A DNA stretch of 64,000 nucleotides from Gekko japonicus (lineage: Eukaryota), in the NCBI RefSeq assembly GCF_001447785.1, contig NW_015167536.1, positions 496,001 through 560,000 on the forward strand, read 5' to 3'. The notes beneath the pieces are model-generated. The model searched no databases. It was not told where the DNA came from and saw only the letters and a program-made list of their open reading frames with translations. Below are positions 4,086-31,998 of the stretch, piece after piece. A program made the translations under genes and the position numbers. Each line of letters opens with the position of its first letter. Position 1 is the stretch's first letter.

Positions 4086-5541
4086 CTTTGGGAGGAGAAG
4101 AAGAAGAAGAAGAAGAGAGGGGAGAAAATACAGCCAGGAGGGAATGAAAGTGACCAAGCCAACGGAAGAACCAATGCCCATCATTTTCCTCCCCCCCCCC
4201 ATCACAGNNNNNNNNNNNNNNNNNNNNNNNNNNNNNNNNNNNNNNNNNNGGATCTTAGCAGGCGTGTCTAGCACAGCCATGAGGACCGTTGTCCCTCTTA
4301 AGTTTGGAATGTATGAGCATAGAAGGCTTGGGGGGGGGAGAACTGCTTTCTAAGCTTGAACCCTGGCTTATTGCTGCAACCAACAATGGCTGCTGGGGAG
4401 TGTGAGGGATCCACCACAGCAGTGGGGAGGCGAGGCGTTCAAAGGGCCAATCTGCAGACCCCCCTCTCTCTAGAGTCAGCATGAGCAATGTTACAGCTAT
4501 AGGAACCGGGCATTCTGTTCTGCAGAAGTTTTTGATTAAGGGGAATGGCACCCTCCACAGACACGCCGCACACTCAGAGACGCAGAGAGAAAGAGACAGA
4601 GAGAGGAGAGACACATTTTTTTTTAAAAAAAAAAAAAAATCAAAGCAACAGATCTGAACAGTGGAGAAGGAAGTTCGCCCAGGAACAGAAATTGCTTTAT
4701 GTCTGCCTGTCCGTCCTTCCATCCCTGCACCCAGCTATCGATGGGGCAGAGCCGATGGCACAGAACGCTTCATTCTAGTATGAATGAAAAGGAACGGACC
4801 ACACCGGGGAACACTGGCTAGACCAGTTGCTTTGATTCAGATTTAGAAAAACAAACAAGCAAACAAACAACCACCCCCACGCACTTGCATTCCTCCCCCC
4901 CCCAAATAAAGCACCTTTAACAACAAAATAATGTTAAAAGTCAACCCAGAAATCCCGTTTAGAAAAGCAATTGCAGTCTTATAGGGAGAAACAAAGCACC
5001 GTCCGCAGACAACACGTTGTCTCCCCCTCCCCAGAAAAACACACTGATTTCAACCTAGACACACATTTTGAATTAAATTTAGAGACAGAGATAGAGATAG
5101 GTAGAGATGTAACCCCCCTCCCCCCCCCCTCGGCATGCACCTCTTAGAGCCTCCTCGAGAGGACAGGAAGCGCCGAGGCTTGTGTTCTGCCCAATTGCCT
5201 TTTACCCCCTCCGAAGCCCGGGACCGAATCCTTTTAAAATGCTCGTGTAAGTTCATGATCAAAGTTAATATTTGTCACCATGGCGCGCTTTTAAAAATTT
5301 CACAGACTCCGGAGATACTGTGTCTGCCGCCTAACATCTCCATTCTCCCCTCCAAGAGCCTTTCCCATCGTAAAAATCCTTCCTCGTTGCAAGAAAGAGC
5401 TTTGTAGGTTATAATAAAATCCTTTGAATGCTTATAAAACTCCACATAAAATTTGACCGACAAAACAGCGGGCTAGTCCCTTAACCTTTCCCATTTACTG
5501 CTCTGCTCTCTCGCTCGCTCGCTCGCTCTCCCGCTACCTAC

Positions 5542-6220
5542 TCGCGCTGCCGCTCTTGCTGCCTTCCTTGTTGACAGAGGAGGAAGAGGCTGAGGAGCCC
5601 GGGTTGGTGTTCTCCTCTTCGTCTTCCGGGTCTACGCCTTGGTCGCCGCGGGATGACAGCGCGCCGGGCTGGGAGTCGGTCTCCAGCTTGCCCTCGCCCT
5701 TCTGCAGGCAGGGCTCCGGCGGGGTCTCGGTGGAGCAATAGGCGTTCTCGAAGAAGCGGTCGAAGCCCTGCGGGAGGACGCTGTTCTTGTTCATGCTGGA
5801 GTAGAAGCCCGTGGACGCCGGGTGGTTGGCGCTGGGGTGGTGGTGGTGGCTGTAGGCGCTCTCGTTTTTCATTAGCATTTCGGTCATGGTGGAAGGCGGG
5901 AGGCACTCGCGGTGCATCAGCTCCTCCGCCGAGTAGCACGAGGCGTAATTGCTTCTATGGTGCCATTTATTGGAAGGGTCCAGCCCGTAGGAAACCTCCC
6001 GCACGGGCTGCACTTGCGAGAGGTTGGTGGAGTAAGGGTAGGAGATTTGGCGAGAGGGGGCCTGTGGCAGGAAAGATGACACAGTCGAAAATTCTGGGAC
6101 GTAATAGGTGCAGCTGGGGAGGTAGAGGTTGGAAGCGCAACCTGCCCGCTCGCCAAAGTCGGCGCTCCGCTCTTTGCGCGACTGCGAGCAGAAGTTTCCC
6201 AGGTTGACTGAGTTAAACAT
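5542..6220 (-). CDS. HOXC11: Homeobox protein Hox-C11, exon 1
   Basis: ATG at 6220 gives [40 protein letters not shown]...[12 protein letters not shown], the HoxC11 N-terminus. Phase-1 donor A|GTAGGT at 5541. 679 nt. Confidence 0.96.
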
Positions 6221-13700: not shown

Positions 13701-15999
13701 AGGCCATTAGCTAGTCCGCTGTCTGCCAACTGAATATTTTCACTTCTGCTCCCNNNNNNNNNNNNNNNNNNNNNNNNNNNNNNNNNNNNNNNNNNNNNNN
13801 NNNNNNNNNNNNNNNNNNNNNNNNNNNNNNNNNNNNNNNNNNNNNNNNNNNNNNNNNNNNNNNNNNNNNNNNNNNNNNNNNNNNNNNNNNNNNNNNGCTC
13901 TCAAGTTTCTGATCCTACAGGAGTCTAAACGTTTCAAAAAATTAATTAGATCAGAAGAGGCAAAGCCAGTTTTCAGAGCGAACTGTACAGCGGTGCCGTC
14001 CCCCGACCAAGCCTACACTTCAGTGCTAAGAGCACGATCCTAACCCTCTTTACTGAAAAGCAAGTCCGCGTGCATTCAAGCAAAGGTGCGCAGAAGGGCC
14101 ACCGGCTGACATGTCTTATTATTATGTAGCTAACACAGCACGCAGGTGACATCTGAAGGGGAATACGAAAAAAATTAACCGTGGAGGTAAGACTGGGAAG
14201 AAGAGAATTGTTGGGGCACTTTGTTTTGATTTTTTTTGCGGGGGGAATCGTCTTCCTGCCCTGCTTGCTGTCCCGCAGGGCAAAGGAATGGGGAAATGTC
14301 CCCTGTTTTCTGTCCCACACACCGGTCTCAAATAAACGCAATTATAACTTGGAATTTCAAAACGAGAAGAGACAAAGCTGAAAAGTCACATCTGGCATTC
14401 GTCGGAAAGAACACACACATGCACACCCCGTAGAGATTAAGTGGCTTTAGAAACTGTCATATTGGGAGATCGGCTCACTTCTCTAATGGACTAGGATCCA
14501 GATAGCTGTTGTTGTTTCCCTGGCCCTTCCCCGCAACAATCTCATTACCCACACAGAAACATTCAGTCACAGGCGCTACGCAGACATCAGGGAAATAGAC
14601 TCCGCCGTCTTCGAGGCTCCTCCACCGCGTAGAGCTGAGGGAGGCCCGGTGATCCACTCTCTGAGATCTCGTTCCCGTGATGTCTGCAAGGCGGGGTTGG
14701 ATGTTTTATTTATGTATCTGTAATGACATTCCTGGGAAAGGAAATCCGAAGGATTTCCATGCAAATAGCTCTCAAGGAAGTGATCGCGGGCTCCCCCTCC
14801 CCTTTGTTTACTTATTTATTTCTGGGAATTGTTTTCTCTCTCCTCCCTTTCTCTCTTTCTCGGATCGCAGTCACAATGGGGACAGCTAAAAGGGGGGAAG
14901 AAGTGGCTTGCATTTTGAAAGTGGGAGGGGGGCGGGCGACCAGGGCCGGATTGCCACTGTTTCGCTTTTCAGCAACAGATTTTTAAAAATTGCCTGATCA
15001 GTCCAAATCTGCCTCACACCAAACCCCCCCCCCCCCCCCCCCAGAGTCCTATTGCTGCTTTGAGAATCTCGGGGAGAGGGGGTTGCGACCGCGCCGAGAA
15101 CGGCTTCGCCACTAGAAAGAAGGGGGGCGCTCTCTTGGGCAAAAGGACGTCCTCCAAATTCTGTCTCTATCTCCCCCCCCCCCAAGCCCAGCCTTTTTAC
15201 CCCAGTCGCGATATTACCTTGTTGGCTCTGTGTCCAAACGGCCACCCACCTTCCCAGGCGCTCATCCCCCCCGACCTATTGGCAGAGCTCACAACGAAAG
15301 GACACGAGCGATCGGGCCATCTTGTCTTCGGATCGTTAGCGCGTTGTGACGACCGACGTCTGTACGCGCGTGTGCGTGTGTATGAGGACGGTACGTGCAC
15401 ACCCAGTCCGTACACACGCATATACACACACACCACGAGGCATAAAGACTCCCAAGTATCTCCCGCTTCCTTGCCTCCCCCTCCACCCCCCTCTATTTCT
15501 TTTTCTTATTAATTTCTGCCTCTCCCCCCCCTCTTCCCACCTTCCTTTTCTTGAGGAGTACCCGACTCCTTTCAGACGGGGAAATCTAAAGCCGCCCTCC
15601 CCAAACCCATCCCCCCCGTCCTTACCGAGAGAACTTCATTGTTTTCTGGAGGAAACGGTAATGCGGAGACATTAAACGCCTAATTGGACTTTTCTTTATG
15701 ATGTTTAATTTCCTCCGCGGCAGACGTGCTCGCGTCTCGTTGCAAGAGGGCTCGTTTGAAGTCTGCAGTCCAAAAAAGTGGAGGGGGGGGGGAGAGGGGA
15801 AAAAAAAGTTTCCAAGCAGCAGTCGTCGGGAGGAGAGCTGGTCTGGTTCCCACACAGTTGCCCCCACCCCACCCTTTCCACCCCCTTTTCCTCTTTATCT
15901 CGGTCTCTGCCTCGAGATACCCCCCCTCCCAGTCTCCCCCAATAAGCGCGGTGCGGGGGTAGGGCCGGGCAAGCGACAAAACCGCCAAGACGCCGGCTA

Positions 16000-16094
16000 T
16001 GTTTACGGTGCCTCCGAACCAGCCGATGGTCATTTCGCCCCGTTGCGACAGACCCTGGAAAATGGAGGACCGCCGAATACCATATAAGGTAGGA
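16000..16094 (+). ncRNA. Putative HOTAIR-homologous exon segment with splice donor
   Basis: AAATGGAGGACCGCCGAATACCATATAAG|GTAGGA resembles an internal human HOTAIR exon end as I recall it (AAATGGAGGACCGGCGCCTTCCTTATAAG). Syntenic position, antisense to HoxC. Transcription not shown. Confidence 0.5.
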
Positions 16095-17035
16095 TGCTAA
16101 CTTGACCTTCACTTTGTAATGGCGGCCCCCGCCCACCCAGACAGACAGTTGTAAACAGAAGTCACCCGACACACACACACACACACAAAGAGAGAGAGAG
16201 AGATTAGCACCGGCCAGGCAAGGTCTCACTGAATTGCTAAGATCTGTGGCTGATTTTTTTAAAAGCTGCCAGCAAACGAGGTACAATATTCTCTCGACTC
16301 CAGCAAGGGAGGGGGGGAGGGGGTGGCTCCAGCAAGGGGAGGGGGGAGGGAGAAGAAAGAGAGTGGGGGGGATTCATCGCTGGAAAGGTTCGTGTGCCCA
16401 CCCCCCCCATCTTTAGCTATTGAGAAGGTTGCAGGGTTTGTTGGAGGGAGCTGTTGTTGCTGTTGAATGTGGCCTTGAGAAGGGTGGGGGTGGCTGGTGG
16501 GGGGCGGCTGGCTGTGAAGAGCGCTTCCTTCCATGCAATTATCTGTCCGCATTCGAACATCTGGCTCTTCTCTGCCGTTTGATGACGACCGCGGTGCCGG
16601 TTTCCCCCGTAGTCTAAACTCCCTTTAAAAAATTTAAAATAAATAACGGTGATTTCTTGGCCGTGACTGTGATCACCCCTAGAAAGTTTTTTTTCAGTGA
16701 AATCAAGCGACCATCGAAAATATTCGAAGAAACGTAGGTCGTGTTTTATTTAATGGGAAGCGAAGGGATGTCCTCAGTCACTCGCCATGTGTGCGGCGGG
16801 CCAATTAAGAAACAAGTTTTTTTGTTTGTTTTTTTAAAAGAATGTTTTACAAGATAAGCCACGGCATGTGTTTCCCATTTTGCAGAGTTTATTTTGGAAC
16901 TGATTATGTTCGGGCCTGTCTTAGATAAGGAAGCGCTGAAGGGAGACTTAATTGTTAAGGTGGGGAGTCCAAACCTTGTATTTTTGTGCGCGCGCGCGGG
17001 AGTGAGGGGGGCACAAAGGNNNNNNNNNNNNNNNN

Positions 17036-17050
17036 AGGGAGAGAGAGAGG

Positions 17051-17105
<55 letters not shown>
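17036..17105. repeat. (GA)n microsatellite next to an assembly gap
   Basis: Direct reading. Confidence 0.9.
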
Positions 17106-17111
<6 letters not shown>

Positions 17112-19440
17112 TATCCTTCAGCAATCTACCATGTATTTCCCCCCTGCTGAATAAATGTGCAACATAGAGAGGTTTGGGGTAAGGGGGTGTAGGGGGCCTT
17201 TGTCGAGGGGATCCAAATGTACGCGTGAATGAGGCCCAACTACTCGCTTGTAAGGCGTTTCGCTCCCCTGAGACCAAATATGCAGAGAAATCTGAACTCA
17301 GAACTTTAATCTCCCGGGGATCAACGTCACTTACTTCCCGGTATCCAGGCGTCGGCGGGGGTTGTTGGGAGCTCTGAGTTCTTGCATCTAGTTCAGAGAG
17401 TCCAGCAGCTTTAAAAACAACACCTCCCAGATATCAGGAACGGGGTTTGGCCCATATAATTTAAATAGATGCATAACTATGAAAAGGCACAATGTAGTCG
17501 AAGAGAGTAATTTTTTAAAAAGTCCAATTAATTTCAGCGGGGGGGGGGGGAATCAAGGAGTTGCGTAACTCTCCCCTTGGCACGAAGGGAGCTTAAAAAT
17601 AAGTCGTGACTTCGGTGGTTCAGAAACATGAAGGTGGGGAGGACTTATGGATATCGTTGGAACTCTTATTATTTATGTGCTTTCTTGGGGGAGGGGATGT
17701 GTAGTCATTTGTGCACGTCTGTTTCTGAGCTGTGTGTTCGTGGATGGATAGACATTCAGATAGAAACCCATAAAGGTACTTCAATACAGACAAGAAAACG
17801 CAAGGAGAGCTCTGCTAGAGGAGACCAAACCTCAATCCGGAGAAACAGAGATGTGTGCAGACAGACACCCACGTTCATGTGAACAGAGTAAGCATATTTA
17901 GATCTTGTTTAGATCTTGCTTGGTCAACACGGACATCTCTTCCCACGTCTTGGCAGGCCGGGAGCGACTTTCATGTCAAAGCGGGCCGTTCCCTCTGATT
18001 TCAATGGAAGCTGTTGAGTGAGGCGTATGTCAGAAATGCGCTTTATTGGGCGGCCAGCTATTAGGATTAGTGGGTCAGGGTTGGAAACTGGCTTCCAGCC
18101 GAGTAGCCTGTGTGTTACCACGGCTCATAGGTTACATGCAAGAAAACAAATTTGCTCTACCTTCGGGTTGTAGATAACAGACGTGTTAAAGTTTCCGAGG
18201 GCAGCCGGGTTGGCCTGCGGATAGCACAGTTAGATGCGAGTCCAATCGCACCTTCCAGAGAGTCAAAGATCCCTTCCTCAGATACCGGAAATTCATATGA
18301 AATTAAGGTCTATTTCCACTTTGAACGGGACTTCCGCCTTGCCGAATCTTAAAGGTCCTTTTGCCGGCAAGCGGGGCTTTGTTGATTTTTGCAAGCTATT
18401 AAGATAGTTAGATGCCATGCCCTTCCACTGAACTGGAGGCTAAACGGCACCCCTTTGCACATTAGTAAGATCCTGTCGTTCTCTCCCCAGCCTCTTTTAT
18501 GTAATGATACTAGGAATGCTGATAATAATTGCATTAAAACCCCTCTCATACCCTCATAATAGATTAACTGTTCTTCATCACAATGAAATGAATTTGCACA
18601 TGCCCTGTAATTATCGTATAATCTCCATTAAACATGTGTTTTGGAGAAGGTAAGATCCTGGAAGCAACGGAACGATTCCCCCCACCCACCCCCCGCTGTT
18701 GCGGGAGATGAATGTTGGCGAGGATTCTGAAAAGATTCCCAGGTGTGGTCTAGGCTTGTTTTGTAACAATAACAGAGAAAGTCTTCTCTTCACCATGGCG
18801 GGCGGGGGTGGGTGGGTGGAAGGCTGGTATATATATCAGAGTATTATTACCACAACCACCACCACTACTACCGCAAACAACGAGCCTACGGGGGGGGCAG
18901 TAGTTTCATTTTGGGCCTAGGAGAAGAATAGTTTTTTGACTTTTGACCTTGCCATAAAAGGAGAGATGTTTCCGAAGCCATCCTTTAATTATAGAATGGG
19001 ACTCTTAATAGTGGGATGGCTCTTTGGCTTCTAAGGACAGGACACGATCCTCCAACCCCAGCTCAGCGTTGCCTCTCGCGCTTCTGCGAGCAAACATGGA
19101 TACAATGGGCAGCAAATACCACTGATTTGGGGGTGAGAGAGATGTAAACACCTGTTTGTGACTAAACCCCTATGCACACTTAATCGTTTGTGGGGGGTTT
19201 TTTTTAAATAAAGGAGAACTGTAATCTCATGACTAAACTCACCTAGGAAATCTATGGAACTCCAAAGTAGCTGGATCGAGCTCAGGGTCCACACGTGTGC
19301 TTCCAATGTGAGATGCGCCTATGCGTTTATAAACAACTTTAGTAGGAGAGCAGTGCTTTTTAAAAATTGGGGGGAAATTATTAATGAGTTCAGCCAGTTA
19401 AGATAATCGCTCAGCAACGAGGCCTGGCCCAGAGGAACAT

Positions 19441-19814
19441 CCTCGTTCTCGCCGCCCCTTGAAGAAACACAAATGGACTGATCTTTTCTTTAATCTTTCA
19501 GATCCTTTCCATCTTTGTTATCACTCTTGTTAACAACACCGGCGAGGCTCGATACATATATTTCATTTAAATGCAGTCAGCCACGGAGCCACGGTAGTCG
19601 GTTGCTACAGAGATATTAATTAATTTATTCCCCCCCCCCCCAGTAAAATATTGCTGTGTCTTCTTGCTACCTACCAAGGCATATAAAAATCAGATTTTTG
19701 TTGCCACTTCTGCAGTTCATTAGGCTTTGCATATCAGTTTCCATTTGAAATGATTTGCTTTAAAACTAATTACTCATATTCTAGTTCAGTCCCCCTCCAA
19801 TCCTTGGGCGTGAG
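19441..19814 (+). ncRNA. Putative HOTAIR terminal-exon-homologous conserved block
   Basis: Collinear motifs CCATCTTT, CTTGTTAACAA, TAATTAATT.ATTCC, GTAAAATAT, ACTCATA and TTGGGCGTGAG, recalled from the human HOTAIR last exon. Includes a candidate acceptor ...ttttctttaatctttcag| ending at 19501. Confidence 0.5.
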
Positions 19815-21646
19815 ATGGATTCAAAGGTGGCGGGGGTAGCATATGTTGGTAAACATTACTCATTATTCCCACTCTGTCTTGATTGTGCATTTATGAACCG
19901 ACCCTTATAAAAAGGCGGCGGAGGGGGGATGGTGGAGAGAAAATACTCTGTAAAAAGGGGGGGTGCGCTGGCATTATTGATGGGGATGGCGCATGTTGCT
20001 TGAAAAAGCGTAAGATCGCCAGGGACAGTGGGAGATGCTCGTGTATTAATGGGGAAGGGGTGTCTTTATAGTTACTTTCTCGGGGATTCCCACGTTGAGA
20101 ATTCAAGAATGGATTCCGCTTGTTGCCTCTTTCCTAACGAGGTAGCAAAAGTCGGGCCCCAAACCGTGCCTTGTCCCCCACCCAACGGGGCTCAAGGTTC
20201 ATCCGCAAGGACTGTTTTCGGCCCAAGTATTAAGGAGCTTTTAAAGATCTCCCGATGGCCTACGCCTAAACAGGCCGACTCGGCTCCGGCTGATGGGAAC
20301 CCTCATGTCCCAAACCCTCATGCCCTGCTTGGGATGGAGGGGCAAGAAGGGAATTGGCCGGATATGGGAGAGGATGGCCGCAGGGCAAGTTTCCCGGGAG
20401 GAGGCAACACGCGCGCCACGCCTGAGCTCTCCCGTGTCCAGGATTTTTTTGGGATGGTCTTAAGGAAAGGTAGGCCTTGTCTCCCAAAAATCTAACTGAA
20501 CGGTTAGCGTTATTGTTACTGAGAGCAAAAGAGTAAACCCTTTTAGGTCCTCTTGATCTTGAGAAGAGTATTCAGTGCAATAATAAACATCTTTCTCCTT
20601 CTACGGTGAATTAGATTTATAACGGCTTAATCTATCCTGCCGCCAGATTTTTTAAATCGATTATTGTTCTTACAGCATGATCCGGCCGAAGTTGAGGGCT
20701 TTTCCGTTCCATGGATTGCAGCTGGCGAGTTTTGAACCCCGGTTTAACTCTTCTTTTGGAATCCAGAGGACTTCAATGAGCTTAATTTGGGGAGCAGGAT
20801 TGTGCCCATTACTATACTGAGACTCTTTTGGGACTGTATATTATTATTATAACTACTACTACAGCTACTAATAGTAGTAGTAATAATAATAATGTTGGAC
20901 ACTTTGTCCAGGAAAATAGGTGCGATTTGTATACAAGAAACCGCGCTTAGTCACAAATGCCCGACCGAGTGACCCTTTCTTAATGGAATTTCATTTGGAT
21001 TGCTTTTCGTGCAGCAATTTATTTTCTCTTATTTTATTTCTGGTTTTCTCCACAGCCTTCCGGGAGTCTCCCAAATACCAATGGAAGAGCATGGGGATGC
21101 CTTCATGGGGGGAGAATTGGGTTGGGGGGGTTGGAGCGGGCTCCAGACGCAGAGAGGATGAAGGCCAAGGCGACCCGAGAGACAGACAGACAGACAGCGA
21201 GGGCGCAGAGCCTCCGTGAAGTCCAAGACCAAGGCTCGCCGACCCCCAAGCGAGAGACCATTTGTCACAAAGGAAGACGTCCCGTCTAGCCGGGAAGGAC
21301 GAGGCACAATATTTCAATTGTTTTATCTGCTTCCAAATAGCGCTGGTTATGAATTCGCAGGGAGGAGCTGTGTGGAATTTATTTCAGGGGCTAAATTTAC
21401 CGAAACGTAAAATGGATATAGGGATGGAGGGATCCAGCGGAGGCAGACGGGAAGAGATGGACAGAGACGCATAACAAATATAGATAAGTCGCTCTTGTGT
21501 ACATTCAGTATTTGCTTAGATACGTGAAAAGGCGTTTAAAAATTCATATCTATATTTATAGATACATACATACATATTCACACACACACATATATATACG
21601 CATGTGTGTATATCCAAATCTATATCTATAAATCTGTGTCTGTCGG

Positions 21647-21684
<38 letters not shown>

Positions 21685-21855
21685 GCTATTGCCAATGTTT
21701 CCTTCTCCTTGCTGTTTCAGAGAACGCCACGATCCTACTTGAGAGTAAGTGCCACTGGAATCCATGTAAATCTGCTGACTGCAATAAAAGGAGAGAAAAA
21801 TCCTTCCTTCCTTCCTTCCTTCCTTCCTTCCTTCCTTCCTTCCTTCCTTCCTTCC
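21647..21855. repeat. (TCTA)n (21647-21684) and (TTCC)n (21801-21855) microsatellites
   Basis: Direct reading. Confidence 0.9.
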
Positions 21856-23025: not shown

Positions 23026-23233
23026 TCCAGAGGAGATAGCCGTGTTAGTCTGTTGCTGCAAAATAGTAAAAAGCCCAGTAGAACCTTTAAGACTAACTAT
23101 TGTAGCATAAGCTTTCGAGAAACACAGCTCTCTTCATCAGATGTACATGACAAAGAGAGCTGTGATTCTCGAAAGCTTATGCTACAATAAAGTTTGTTAG
23201 TCTTAAAGATGCTACTGGGCTTTTTACTATTTG
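23026..23233. mobile_element. Penelope-like element remnant, inverted (palindromic) terminal-repeat structure with 11-bp target-site duplication
   Basis: Arms 23061-23134 and ~23153-23232 are near-perfect reverse complements. Flanked by ACATGTAGAGA at 23015-23025 and 23234-23244. The sequence (tagccgtgttagtctg...gcataagctttcgag...cttcatcagatg) is typical of reptile Penelope termini. Confidence 0.75.
23102..23146 (-). ncRNA. Minimal type-I hammerhead ribozyme motif (Penelope-associated)
   Basis: Minus strand GUACAU-CUGAUGA-aGAGAgcuguguuUCUC-GAAA-GCUU-AUGCUAC: catalytic core, stem II, palindromic AAGCUU in place of stem III, stem I CAU/AUG extended by GUA/UAC. Confidence 0.6.
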
Positions 23234-29610: not shown

Positions 29611-29822
29611 ATTCACATCTATGTCTGCGGCTGGATGATTTGCAAAGGATACCGATTCTTGTTTTAAAAAGGGGGGGGAGGGAAATAATATAACAATAAT
29701 CTAAACTGGCTATTCAGACCAGATCAGGTTTTCAGAAGTCCCGGGACCATCAACTGCGCCCAAGGCTAGAGAGTTCTCTGCGGTGGTTACCCATCGTGGA
29801 CTTGTCTGAACTTCTTCTTTGT

Positions 29823-30061
29823 TTAAAAGAAAGAAAGGGCTTGCTCTCTCAGGAGGAGTCTTTTCTTTTTCATTCGCCGGTTCTGGAACCAGATCTTCAC
29901 CTGCTGGTCGCTCAGGTTTAACCGATCTGAGAGCTCCCTTCTTCTTTGGCGAGTAATGAATTCATTGACCATAAACTCCCCTTCCAGCTCCGCGAGCTGC
30001 AGTTTGGAGTAGGGTTTTCGCTTTTTCCGTGACCTTGTGTGCATCGGGTACCAGGGAGCAC
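29823..30061 (-). CDS. HOXC12: Homeobox protein Hox-C12, exon 2 (homeodomain)
   Basis: Acceptor ttctttag|GT. Translates [79 protein letters not shown], in frame with exon 1 (267 aa). Confidence 0.96.
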
Positions 30062-30102
30062 CTAAAGAACAGCGTGAGGGACAAGAGATTTAACACGTGG
30101 GG

Positions 30103-30105
<3 letters not shown>

Positions 30106-30144
<39 letters not shown>
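30106..30144. repeat. (AG)n microsatellite in the HOXC12 intron
   Basis: Direct reading; reads as a pyrimidine tract on the sense strand upstream of the acceptor. Confidence 0.9.
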
Positions 30145-30147
<3 letters not shown>

Positions 30148-31433
30148 AAAAAATGGGAATTCTTTCCCTCCTCCACTTCTTGAATAACGCCCCGCGTATA
30201 CCACAGAAAGTCATGCTTCAGCCCCAGGAGAAAGGAGGGAGAAAGAATCCCTGTATCTCAGTTTTAGATCCCAAGGCTTAGAGGGTTCATGTCAGGCATG
30301 CCACACTAGGCGTAGATAGCAAACGCAGGGGATGAACCAGAGCGAGAGCGCAGGAGAGATGAGTGTCACCAGCAAGCCAGAGAACGGCCCAGCGGTTCGG
30401 TTTGGGGCTCGCCCGCCAGTCTGGAAATGACGGAGCGGGGAGGCTGAGCCATAGAGTCCCCGAGCTAGCTAAGGCGATATCTACAGGCGCTTTACCAGGA
30501 AAAGACGCCAGCTGGCTCTTCCTGGAAGTGTCGCGCTACAGAAGAAGAGCAGGCACATAGCGGGAAGCTTGTTGGAAGGATTTTGTTTTTAATGGCGCCT
30601 CAGTCTTAGGCGGAGGCAATTTTTTTTAATGGAGCGTCCACGATTTTGCACGGGAAACGACCGGGTTCGGGGAAGAGGTGGGCAGAAACCATCTCCCCCC
30701 CCCCCCCCCCGCGGAGGGAATACAGAAAGTTGCTTTACGTGGGACTTGGCATCTCCTTCCCAAAGCTCTTCTCCAAGACGCTTCACCTGAGATGTCTACC
30801 CTGACCGGGTCTAGCCATTCCCAAGAACCCTTTCTTGAAGTTTCCACCACCCATTCCAGCAAAGCCAAGGCTTCAACCAGCCACACGGCCGCGAAGTCTT
30901 CCCCGGACCAGTCCCCATTCCCCCCCCCCTTTTTTTTTTGCGAGCCTGGCGTCAATCATGCAACCGGTGGGGGTGGGAAAAAAATTCGTCTGGAAGTGCT
31001 TGCTTGTGAGAATGGGGGAAAGCGGGCTGGGGGGAAGGAGGGAGGGAGGGAGAGAGCGAGAAAGAGAGGAGACCGGGAATCTGTCTATCTGGCCCATCGC
31101 GATCTCCTCTTTTATGGGATATTTACATGTTTATAGGCTTTTCTTTTAAAAGAAGCACCACCTAATAAAGCGCGAGGCATTTGAGTGCTACCCCTAGCGG
31201 CCTCGGCACAAATCGGCATGCTTCGACCCGGCTGCTAATTTCATGGAATTTATAACAGCAAGAGCGGCGAGCGGACTTTGCAAGCGGGAGAGAGAGACAG
31301 AGAGAGAGACAGAAAGAAGTCAAGAAGAGGCATGGCATACATCGGCTTTTCTTGTTCCCACCCGCACCACACACGCACGCACGCACCCCCGCACACATAG
31401 ACACGCGCGTTTCCTGGTCGCACCAGTGCTTAC

Positions 31434-31998
31434 CCCCAGCGGAAAGATTGCTTCCTTGGTTGAGAGGGGAGACCAGGGTGGACGGCTCGCTGGCGGCGCC
31501 CTTATTCCCTTCATTGAGTAAGGAGGAGCTGGAGTCTGACTCTAAGGACTGGCAGGAAGGGGGGTCGTGGGGCACCGCCTCGGCAGCCGGATAGTCAAAT
31601 TTGCCGAAATTCCCGCTCATTCCATTGGGGATCCCGGCCTCGAGGGGCATCAAGGCCGCGTCCCTGACCCTCTCTTCCCTCTTGAGGGGGGCGTTCTCGG
31701 CGCACGCCTCCCTATAGTAGCACTTGCTCTCTTCCACTCTAGCTAGGTCGCAGGCTCGGCTGAAGGAAGGGTTAATGGACACGGGGCTGCTGAGATAGGG
31801 CTGGGGGTATCCGTTGCACGGCTCGGAGGATGCCCAGGGCAAGGAGCAGACATTGTCCCTTCGTGGGTAGGAGAGAGACGGTAAGCCGGGCAGCTGTCCT
31901 CCGGAGGCTCGGAAATTGGGGAAATAGAAGGTGTCTCCCGTATGGATGTTCACCAACGGTCCCACAAACCCAGGATTAAGGAGATTATGTTCGCCCAT
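31434..31998 (-). CDS. HOXC12: Homeobox protein Hox-C12, exon 1
   Basis: [55 protein letters not shown]...[16 protein letters not shown], the HoxC12 N-terminus. Phase-1 donor G|GTAAGC at 31433. 565 nt. Confidence 0.96.

What the first reader, a model, noticed from the sequence alone, without database searches (positions are those of the whole stretch)
16000..16094. HOTAIR-like exon end with a preserved splice donor in a non-mammal
Seen: + strand AAATGGAGGACCGCCGAATACCATATAAG|GTAGGA (13-mer at 16060-16072, GT at 16089-16090), with ATGTTTAC ~60 nt upstream. From my recollection of human HOTAIR, a conserved internal exon contains ATGTTTAC and ends AAATGGAGGACCGGCGCCTTCCTTATAAG. Position (HOXC11-HOXC12) and strand (antisense) agree. 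HOTAIR has often been treated as largely mammal-restricted. A conserved donor would argue for a spliced ancestral amniote transcript rather than only a DNA element.
Basis: partly seen in the sequence, partly recalled or inferred. Interest (0 to 1): 0.7.

Follow-up and report, generated by a model that had tools for sequence, protein, structure and literature searches.

The report
Gecko splices a HOTAIR-like RNA
A gecko's Hox cluster carries the same exon end and splice signal as the human non-coding RNA HOTAIR, and one public sequence set shows it spliced there but to a different last exon, so the RNA likely predates mammals while the conserved core likely works as a DNA switch for the neighbouring Hox gene.

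Summary
Observation confirmed. In this gecko HOXC11-HOXC12 interval, 16060-16088 matches the end of human HOTAIR exon 4 at 24/29 bases, and the GT falls exactly at the human boundary. Eight bases on lies the published 32-nt HOTAIR conserved element (30/32; Nepal 2020), so deep DNA conservation is already known.

New here: in 1 of 3 contig sets laid, the donor is spliced to an acceptor at 21056. This is read indirectly from a two-contig loose end that only donors 16088 and 16280 explain (2 of 416 AG|GT sites). A third donor joins the same acceptor directly. These introns skip the blocks homologous to human exon 6, and a second set shows splicing on the opposite strand. The HOXD paralogue shares 7 of the 11 flanking bases but lacks the GT.

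Best reading: an ancient DNA enhancer of HOXC11 with an inherited spliced antisense transcript whose body drifts freely. The scan earlier noted the element in another lizard, with splicing untested. Tissue, start and function are untested.

The parts
15979..16088 (+). Exon body and 3' end homologous to human HOTAIR exon 4; the 5' boundary is not determined
   Evidence: Rfam HOTAIR_3 22.5 bits; last 29 nt 24/29 identical to human exon 4 end
15999..16006 (+). Conserved 8-mer; its reverse strand fits a forkhead-type site (motif name recalled)
   Evidence: mouse and rat variants also fit the recalled forkhead consensus
16089..16094 (+). Conserved splice donor, used in run X1 and joined to 21056
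   Evidence: Same 8-nt spacing to the CNE as in human; loose end resolved
16097..16128 (+). 32-nt HOTAIR conserved non-coding element (Nepal 2020); intronic after donor 1
   Evidence: 30/32 to the human sequence in Table S1; 28/32 to the HOXD paralogue in the same genome
16281..16286 (+). Alternative donor 2, joined to 21056; would leave the CNE in the exon if that exon is continuous from upstream (not shown)
   Evidence: (one zero-mismatch match, 0.05 expected by chance)
17551..17887 (+). Stretch ending at alternative donor 3 (GT at 17888), joined directly to 21056
   Evidence: joint 17887 to 21056, GT..AG, run X1
19499..19564 (+). Block homologous to part of human exon 6 (Rfam HOTAIR_2); inside the intron of all three gecko joints
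   Evidence: 36.1 bits, E 2.4e-5; place in human exon 6; X1 contig unbroken over 18879-19941
19611..19650 (+). Weak colinear match to Rfam HOTAIR_1 (also human exon 6); intronic here
   Evidence: 18.7 bits, E 3.3, weak on its own
21031..21055 (+). Polypyrimidine tract and CAG acceptor shared by the three donors
21056..21520 (+). Downstream exon, at least to the end of the stretch laid; the first AATAAA downstream is at 21783
   Evidence: X1 contig depth steps from about 7 to 57 at 21056; single copy in G000; hexamer
15763..17334 (-). Intron of an opposite-strand (HOXC-sense) spliced RNA that spans the exon end and the CNE
   Evidence: X4 loose end before 17335 equals window 15733-15762; minus-strand GTAAG...CAG
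5534..6220 (-). HOXC11 coding exon 1, the presumed cis target, 9.9 kb from the CNE
29800..31998 (-). HOXC12 (approximate limits), the other flank

Best explanation
This is the gecko counterpart of HOTAIR exon 4 and its adjacent 32-base conserved element; the element likely acts as a DNA enhancer of HOXC11, and the antisense RNA spliced at its edge is likely inherited from the amniote ancestor and likely matters, if at all, locally through the act of transcription. Shown: homology, exact boundary, HOXD paralogue, and donor use in one contig set with a different last exon. Inferred: when the posterior HOXC cluster opens, transcription factors bind the element, which carries nuclear-receptor, Hox-type, YY1-like and forkhead-like motifs (names recalled). 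Polymerase crosses it in both directions. The antisense transcript is spliced at the strongest nearby donor, and at two weaker ones, to whichever strong acceptor the lineage offers. Selection holds the short DNA blocks and perhaps the donor, but not the mature RNA.
For: Homology and register. Donor use: the X1 loose-end consensus is rebuilt letter for letter (30/30) as the tie-consensus of the exon ends at 16088 and 16280, and only these 2 of 416 AG|GT sites in the window are compatible with it. No second genomic copy of either exon was found that could be a retrocopy. DNA-level constraint: the blocks exonic in human exon 6 are conserved yet intronic in the gecko joints. The HOXD paralogue keeps 28/32 of the CNE and 7/11 of the flank (chance about 0.01) with A instead of G at +1. 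Spliced RNA crosses the element on both strands. Literature: enhancer marks and bidirectional CAGE at the human CNE, with expression correlated to HOXC11 (PMC7139118); Hotair deletion in mouse acts in cis (PMC5157951).
Against: Donor use rests on one contig set of three (X1), whose RNA origin is the tool's guess, and on an inferred tie rule. Expected agreement was 0.65 against 0.67 reported. X4 covers the acceptor unspliced and X11 gave only 2 contigs. The GT is present at the orthologous place in human and gecko but not in the HOXD copy, which fits selection on splicing itself. No enhancer data exist for the gecko. Deleting the HOXD copy gave no phenotype in mouse (as cited in PMC7139118).
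Confidence: 0.6

Rival explanations
1. The splicing is incidental. The donor-like bases persist only as part of the DNA element, and pervasive Hox transcription uses them in the gecko independently of the mammalian gene.
For: Two further, non-conserved and weak donors join the same acceptor (matrix scores 0.13 and 1.67 against 4.7). Spliced RNA also occurs on the opposite strand. The paralogue shares the flank without a GT.
Against: The same boundary is used in human, the same 8-nt spacing is reported for mouse, and a host transcript is listed for coelacanth. Inheritance is more parsimonious than repeated co-option. The GT is specific to the HOXC copy.
Confidence: 0.2
2. The mature RNA is the conserved functional unit, acting in trans as a chromatin scaffold or by pairing its CNE with HOXD11-strand RNA; exon 4 and the donor are held for that reason.
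For: About 110 nt of exon 4 is recognisable after more than 300 My. Donor 2 could retain the CNE in the RNA, and the CNE is 28/32 complementary to the HOXD-sense strand. In vitro pairing is reported (PMC7139118).
Against: The gecko joints remove the exon-6 blocks. Complementarity follows automatically from any duplicated element read in opposite directions. Mouse Hotair lacks exons 1-3, and its loss has little trans effect (PMC3102750, PMC5157951).
Confidence: 0.15
3. The junction at 16088 is a misreading of a mixed loose end, or an assembly or template-switch artefact; only the DNA element is real.
For: The junction was read indirectly from a two-contig consensus. It is in one run only, and the run's library type is not on record.
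Against: The consensus was rebuilt 30/30, with 2 of 416 sites compatible. All joints have canonical GT..AG ends and a polypyrimidine acceptor, and depth steps up at the acceptor.
Confidence: 0.05

Closest known systems
HOTAIR conserved non-coding element (Nepal et al. 2020, PMC7139118; preprint 10.1101/250621)
   Same: 30/32 identical, between HOXC11 and HOXC12, 8 nt from the splice site, with a paralogue between HOXD11 and HOXD12 in the same orientation
   Different: No squamate is in Table S1. For reptiles the transcript orientation was inferred, not observed. The extension of paralogy across the splice site was not in the parts I read; figures S1-S3 could not be seen.
Human HOTAIR (six exons) and mouse Hotair (two annotated exons matching human 4 and 6; PMC3102750)
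   Same: Antisense, same interval, same exon-4 end and donor, three colinear Rfam blocks
   Different: The gecko donor joins an acceptor about 1.5 kb beyond the exon-6 blocks, which are skipped. There are two extra donors. No Rfam match to the other two HOTAIR families appeared at E up to 10 in 6-32 kb.
Mouse AntiHotair / LAHotair (Amandio 2016, PMC5157951)
   Same: HOXC-sense non-coding transcription over the Hotair locus towards Hoxc11
   Different: Wild-type mouse AntiHotair is short and unspliced. The gecko X4 form is spliced across the CNE, and its start and any link to HOXC11 are unknown.
ncHOXD11 and the Hoxd11 upstream element (Beckers 1996, 1998, seen only as cited in PMC7139118)
   Same: Paralogous element; a Hox-sense non-coding RNA crosses it
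   Different: The HOXD copy has no GT at the donor position in this genome

Membership tests
HOTAIR CNE (Nepal 2020) | 32-nt sequence between HOXC11 and HOXC12 | tested here: met
   30/32 at 16097-16128
HOTAIR CNE (Nepal 2020) | 8 nt from the HOTAIR splice site | tested here: met
   human 54,359,748 against 54,359,739; window 16088 against 16097
HOTAIR CNE (Nepal 2020) | One paralogue between HOXD11 and HOXD12 | tested here: met
   2 matches in G000, the second between HOXD11- and HOXD12-type homeodomains
HOTAIR CNE (Nepal 2020) | Enhancer chromatin or reporter activity | not testable with these tools
   no gecko chromatin data available
HOTAIR lncRNA | Spliced transcript antisense to HOXC11/12 | tested here: met
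   three GT..AG joints on + in X1, 1 of 3 contig sets; strand inferred from intron ends
HOTAIR lncRNA | Exon 4 with the same donor | tested here: met
   (use read indirectly from a loose end)
HOTAIR lncRNA | Exon 4 joined to a last exon holding the conserved exon-6 blocks | tested here: not met
   the blocks at 19499-19650 lie in the skipped part of all three joints; rare forms are not excluded
HOTAIR lncRNA | Non-coding | tested here: inconclusive
   longest ATG frames 84-129 aa on assumed exon limits; 0 Pfam hits for the 2 ORFs tested; true ends unknown
HOTAIR lncRNA | PRC2/LSD1 binding, posterior expression, effect on HOXD | not testable with these tools
   tissue of the runs unknown; no functional data
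Rfam RF01904-RF01906 (HOTAIR_1-3) | Score at or above the gathering threshold | tested here: not met
   18.7 against 44, 36.1 against 60, 22.5 against 80 bits

The most novel reading that the evidence does not exclude
The real conserved core of HOTAIR is a splice donor fused to a duplicated enhancer. After the second genome duplication the HOXC copy had a GT donor and the HOXD copy did not, and splicing at this donor has been selected for at least 300 million years while the rest of the RNA was replaced. Choice between donors 16088 and 16280 would decide whether the element enters the mature RNA.
Probability: 0.2. Interest if true: 0.75.

Novelty: new variant of a known kind. Interest (0 to 1): 0.5.

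Why it matters
HOTAIR is a textbook lncRNA whose mode of action (RNA in trans or DNA/transcription in cis) is disputed. It was described as mammal-only (PMC3103462), and a 2021 review still lists only mammals (PMC8293171). A lizard that uses the same donor but a different last exon is a natural experiment: the donor and short DNA blocks are conserved and the mature RNA is not, which favours the cis view. It points to a two-base donor mutation as a test that separates splicing from enhancer function. The DNA element itself is already published, which caps the interest.

Tried and rejected
(1) I predicted an acceptor at 19502, at the edge of the HOTAIR_2 block. It was not seen: the X1 and X4 contigs run through it unbroken.

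(2) Raw RNA run X14, about 12 in 100 of it read, laid 0 reads. This is no test, since the tissue is unknown and there was no control stretch. No listed holder of the stretch is on record as RNA.

(3) No reads were laid over the exon and donor themselves or upstream of them. The exon's 5' limit, upstream exons, the start site and the spliced share therefore stay open.

(4) Protein coding: the 129-aa frame at 15698-16087 and the 148-aa frame at 20049 have no Pfam hit. The Rfam alignment shows insertions of 2 and 3 bases relative to the mammalian consensus. Rejected as chance.

(5) Retrocopy: one match each in G000 for the exon region and the downstream exon; the tool warns that such counts are lower bounds.

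(6) Paralogy beyond the 43-nt core: 400-nt flanks of the HOXC and HOXD copies align no better than shuffles (p 0.32 and 0.24).

(7) Rfam miRNA and snoRNA hits are simple-repeat or hairpin noise below threshold.

(8) Nine paper searches listed no report of a spliced reptile HOTAIR. Most showed only the top 12-25 of many hits. One search listed all 8 papers holding both 'HOTAIR' and 'gecko', none on this topic by title or abstract start. Database annotations such as RefSeq lncRNA models could not be checked.

(9) The tammar supplement gave no exon sequences. The look-up for look-alike stretches in other scanned genomes returned nothing.

Full report
Setting. The window holds HOXC11, HOXC12 and HOXC13, all on the minus strand. 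HOXC11 exon 1 is 100% identical over 228 aa to a protein that a source names for Gekko japonicus, so this is a gecko. The finding lies 9.9 kb upstream of the HOXC11 start codon; the + strand is antisense.

Observation. Human HOTAIR exon 4 is printed in the supplement of He et al. 2011 (PMC3103462; I saw passages of the text and of that file) as chr12(-) 54,359,871-54,359,748. Its last 29 bases match 16060-16088 at 24 of 29 without gaps (my count). Rfam HOTAIR_3 hits 15979-16087 (22.5 bits), HOTAIR_2 hits 19499-19564 (36.1 bits, E 2.4e-5) and HOTAIR_1 weakly hits 19611-19650 (18.7 bits, E 3.3). They are colinear and all below gathering score. The hits are reported on the minus strand because the HOTAIR_2 and HOTAIR_3 consensus lines are the reverse complement of the printed exon sequences (against 41 and 45).

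Eight bases after the junction begins the 32-nt element of Nepal et al. 2020 (PMC7139118; I read parts 1-4 of 6 and Table S1; the PDF with figures S1-S7 and methods was too large to read). It matches at 30 of 32. The human coordinates give the same 8-base gap, and the preprint states it for mouse too (passages). Table S1 lists the HOXC copy in alligator, turtle, frog, coelacanth, gar and elephant shark, lists no squamate, and marks a host transcript for coelacanth. Deep conservation of the DNA is therefore known.

Paralogue. A pattern search of the own genome gave 2 matches: this site and one between HOXD11- and HOXD12-type homeodomains, in the same orientation. The copies agree at 28 of 32 in the element and at 7 of the 11 bases 5' of it, including the last three exon bases (chance 0.008-0.015 binomial, 0.011 empirical). 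The HOXD copy has A, not G, at +1, which makes a GATA-type site (motif name recalled). The flanks beyond do not align better than shuffles. The donor thus sits inside the ancient duplicated element, and only the HOXC copy has the GT.

RNA evidence. Of 17 listed runs I laid 4 on 17110-21520: three contig sets whose RNA origin is the tool's guess (X1, X4, X11) and one raw RNA run (X14). X1 shows a direct joint 17887 to 21056 with GT..AG ends, a depth step from about 7 to 57 at 21056, and a loose end of two contigs before 21054. That consensus matched the 30 bases before the AG of the exon end at 16088 at 23 positions, and every difference was an alphabetically earlier letter, suggesting a tie rule. 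A degenerate pattern built from this gave one match in the window, the exon end at 16280 followed by GT (0.05 expected). The tie-consensus of the two ends reproduces the tool's string at 30 of 30, and only these 2 of 416 AG|GT sites are compatible with it. The expected agreement is 0.65 against 0.67 reported, a small difference I did not resolve. The conserved donor is therefore used in X1, as are two weaker ones, all to one acceptor with a clear polypyrimidine tract.

Results against a simple HOTAIR reading. All three joints skip the HOTAIR_2 and HOTAIR_1 blocks, which lie in human exon 6. My predicted acceptor at 19502 was not used. X4 crosses 21056 unspliced and instead has a loose end before 17335 equal to 15733-15762, which is an intron 15763-17334 with GT..AG ends on the minus (HOXC-sense) strand. 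X11 gave 2 contigs and no joint; X14 gave 0 reads (no test). Donor use is thus seen in 1 of 3 contig sets. Contigs cannot show strand, start or level; strand is inferred from intron ends.

Mechanism. Shown: homology, register, paralogue, and splicing on both strands across the element. Inferred: the conserved blocks behave like DNA sites, since they persist whether exonic (human) or intronic (gecko) and have a paralogue without the donor. Both copies carry a nuclear-receptor half-site and a Hox-type site (names recalled). In human cells the element has enhancer marks and bidirectional transcription correlated with HOXC11. Mouse Hotair deletion acts on neighbouring Hoxc genes and reveals a Hox-strand AntiHotair (PMC5157951, passages). 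Mouse Hotair already differs from human in exon content while keeping exon 4 (PMC3102750, passages; tammar likewise, PMC3541083, passages and section 9). I therefore read the locus as an ancient enhancer of HOXC11 with an inherited spliced antisense transcript whose body drifts (0.6). The rivals are incidental splicing (0.2), a conserved trans-acting RNA (0.15) and artefact (0.05). Complementarity between the HOXC and HOXD copies follows from duplication alone and is not evidence of pairing.

Novelty. The element is a known one in a further lineage. Use of the orthologous donor in a reptile, with a different last exon, did not appear in nine paper searches (mostly top listings only). He 2011 concluded that HOTAIR is mammal-only after testing chicken and zebrafish, and a 2021 review lists only mammals (PMC8293171, passages). 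A splice-site survey (PMC4408788, passages) and a lizard lncRNA paper (PMC10405410, passages) do not treat this junction in the passages seen. Unseen supplementary figures of Nepal and database lncRNA models may already show non-mammalian exon structures. Verdict: new variant of a known kind, interest 0.5.

Noticed in passing
window 15763-17334, minus strand: Run X4 holds a HOXC-sense spliced RNA crossing the CNE. About 970 letters of that contig lie beyond the junction towards HOXC11; it may be an AntiHotair-like RNA or a far 5' exon of HOXC11.
   Followed up: partly
L002 1490-1532: The HOXD paralogue keeps the three bases before the junction position and part of the next eight, but reads as a GATA-type site instead of a donor.
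   Followed up: yes
window 14187-14278, + strand: A 92-nt stretch that starts with a near-consensus donor and ends in a pyrimidine tract plus CAG; a candidate upstream intron of the antisense RNA (read by eye).
   Followed up: no
window 19480-19502, + strand: Acceptor-like tract exactly at the edge of the HOTAIR_2 block; not used in the contigs laid.
   Followed up: yes
window about 23050-23230: Long near-perfect inverted repeat that draws sub-threshold miRNA hits on both strands; looks like a MITE-type insertion.
   Followed up: no
window about 20120: Run X4 has 33 extra letters here, plus 8 substitutions and 4 one-base indels across the stretch, while X1 shows none; probably a different individual or population.
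   Followed up: no
window 15979-16087 and 19499-19564: The Rfam HOTAIR_2 and HOTAIR_3 models are oriented opposite to the HOTAIR transcript, so their hits fall on the HOXC-sense strand.
   Followed up: yes
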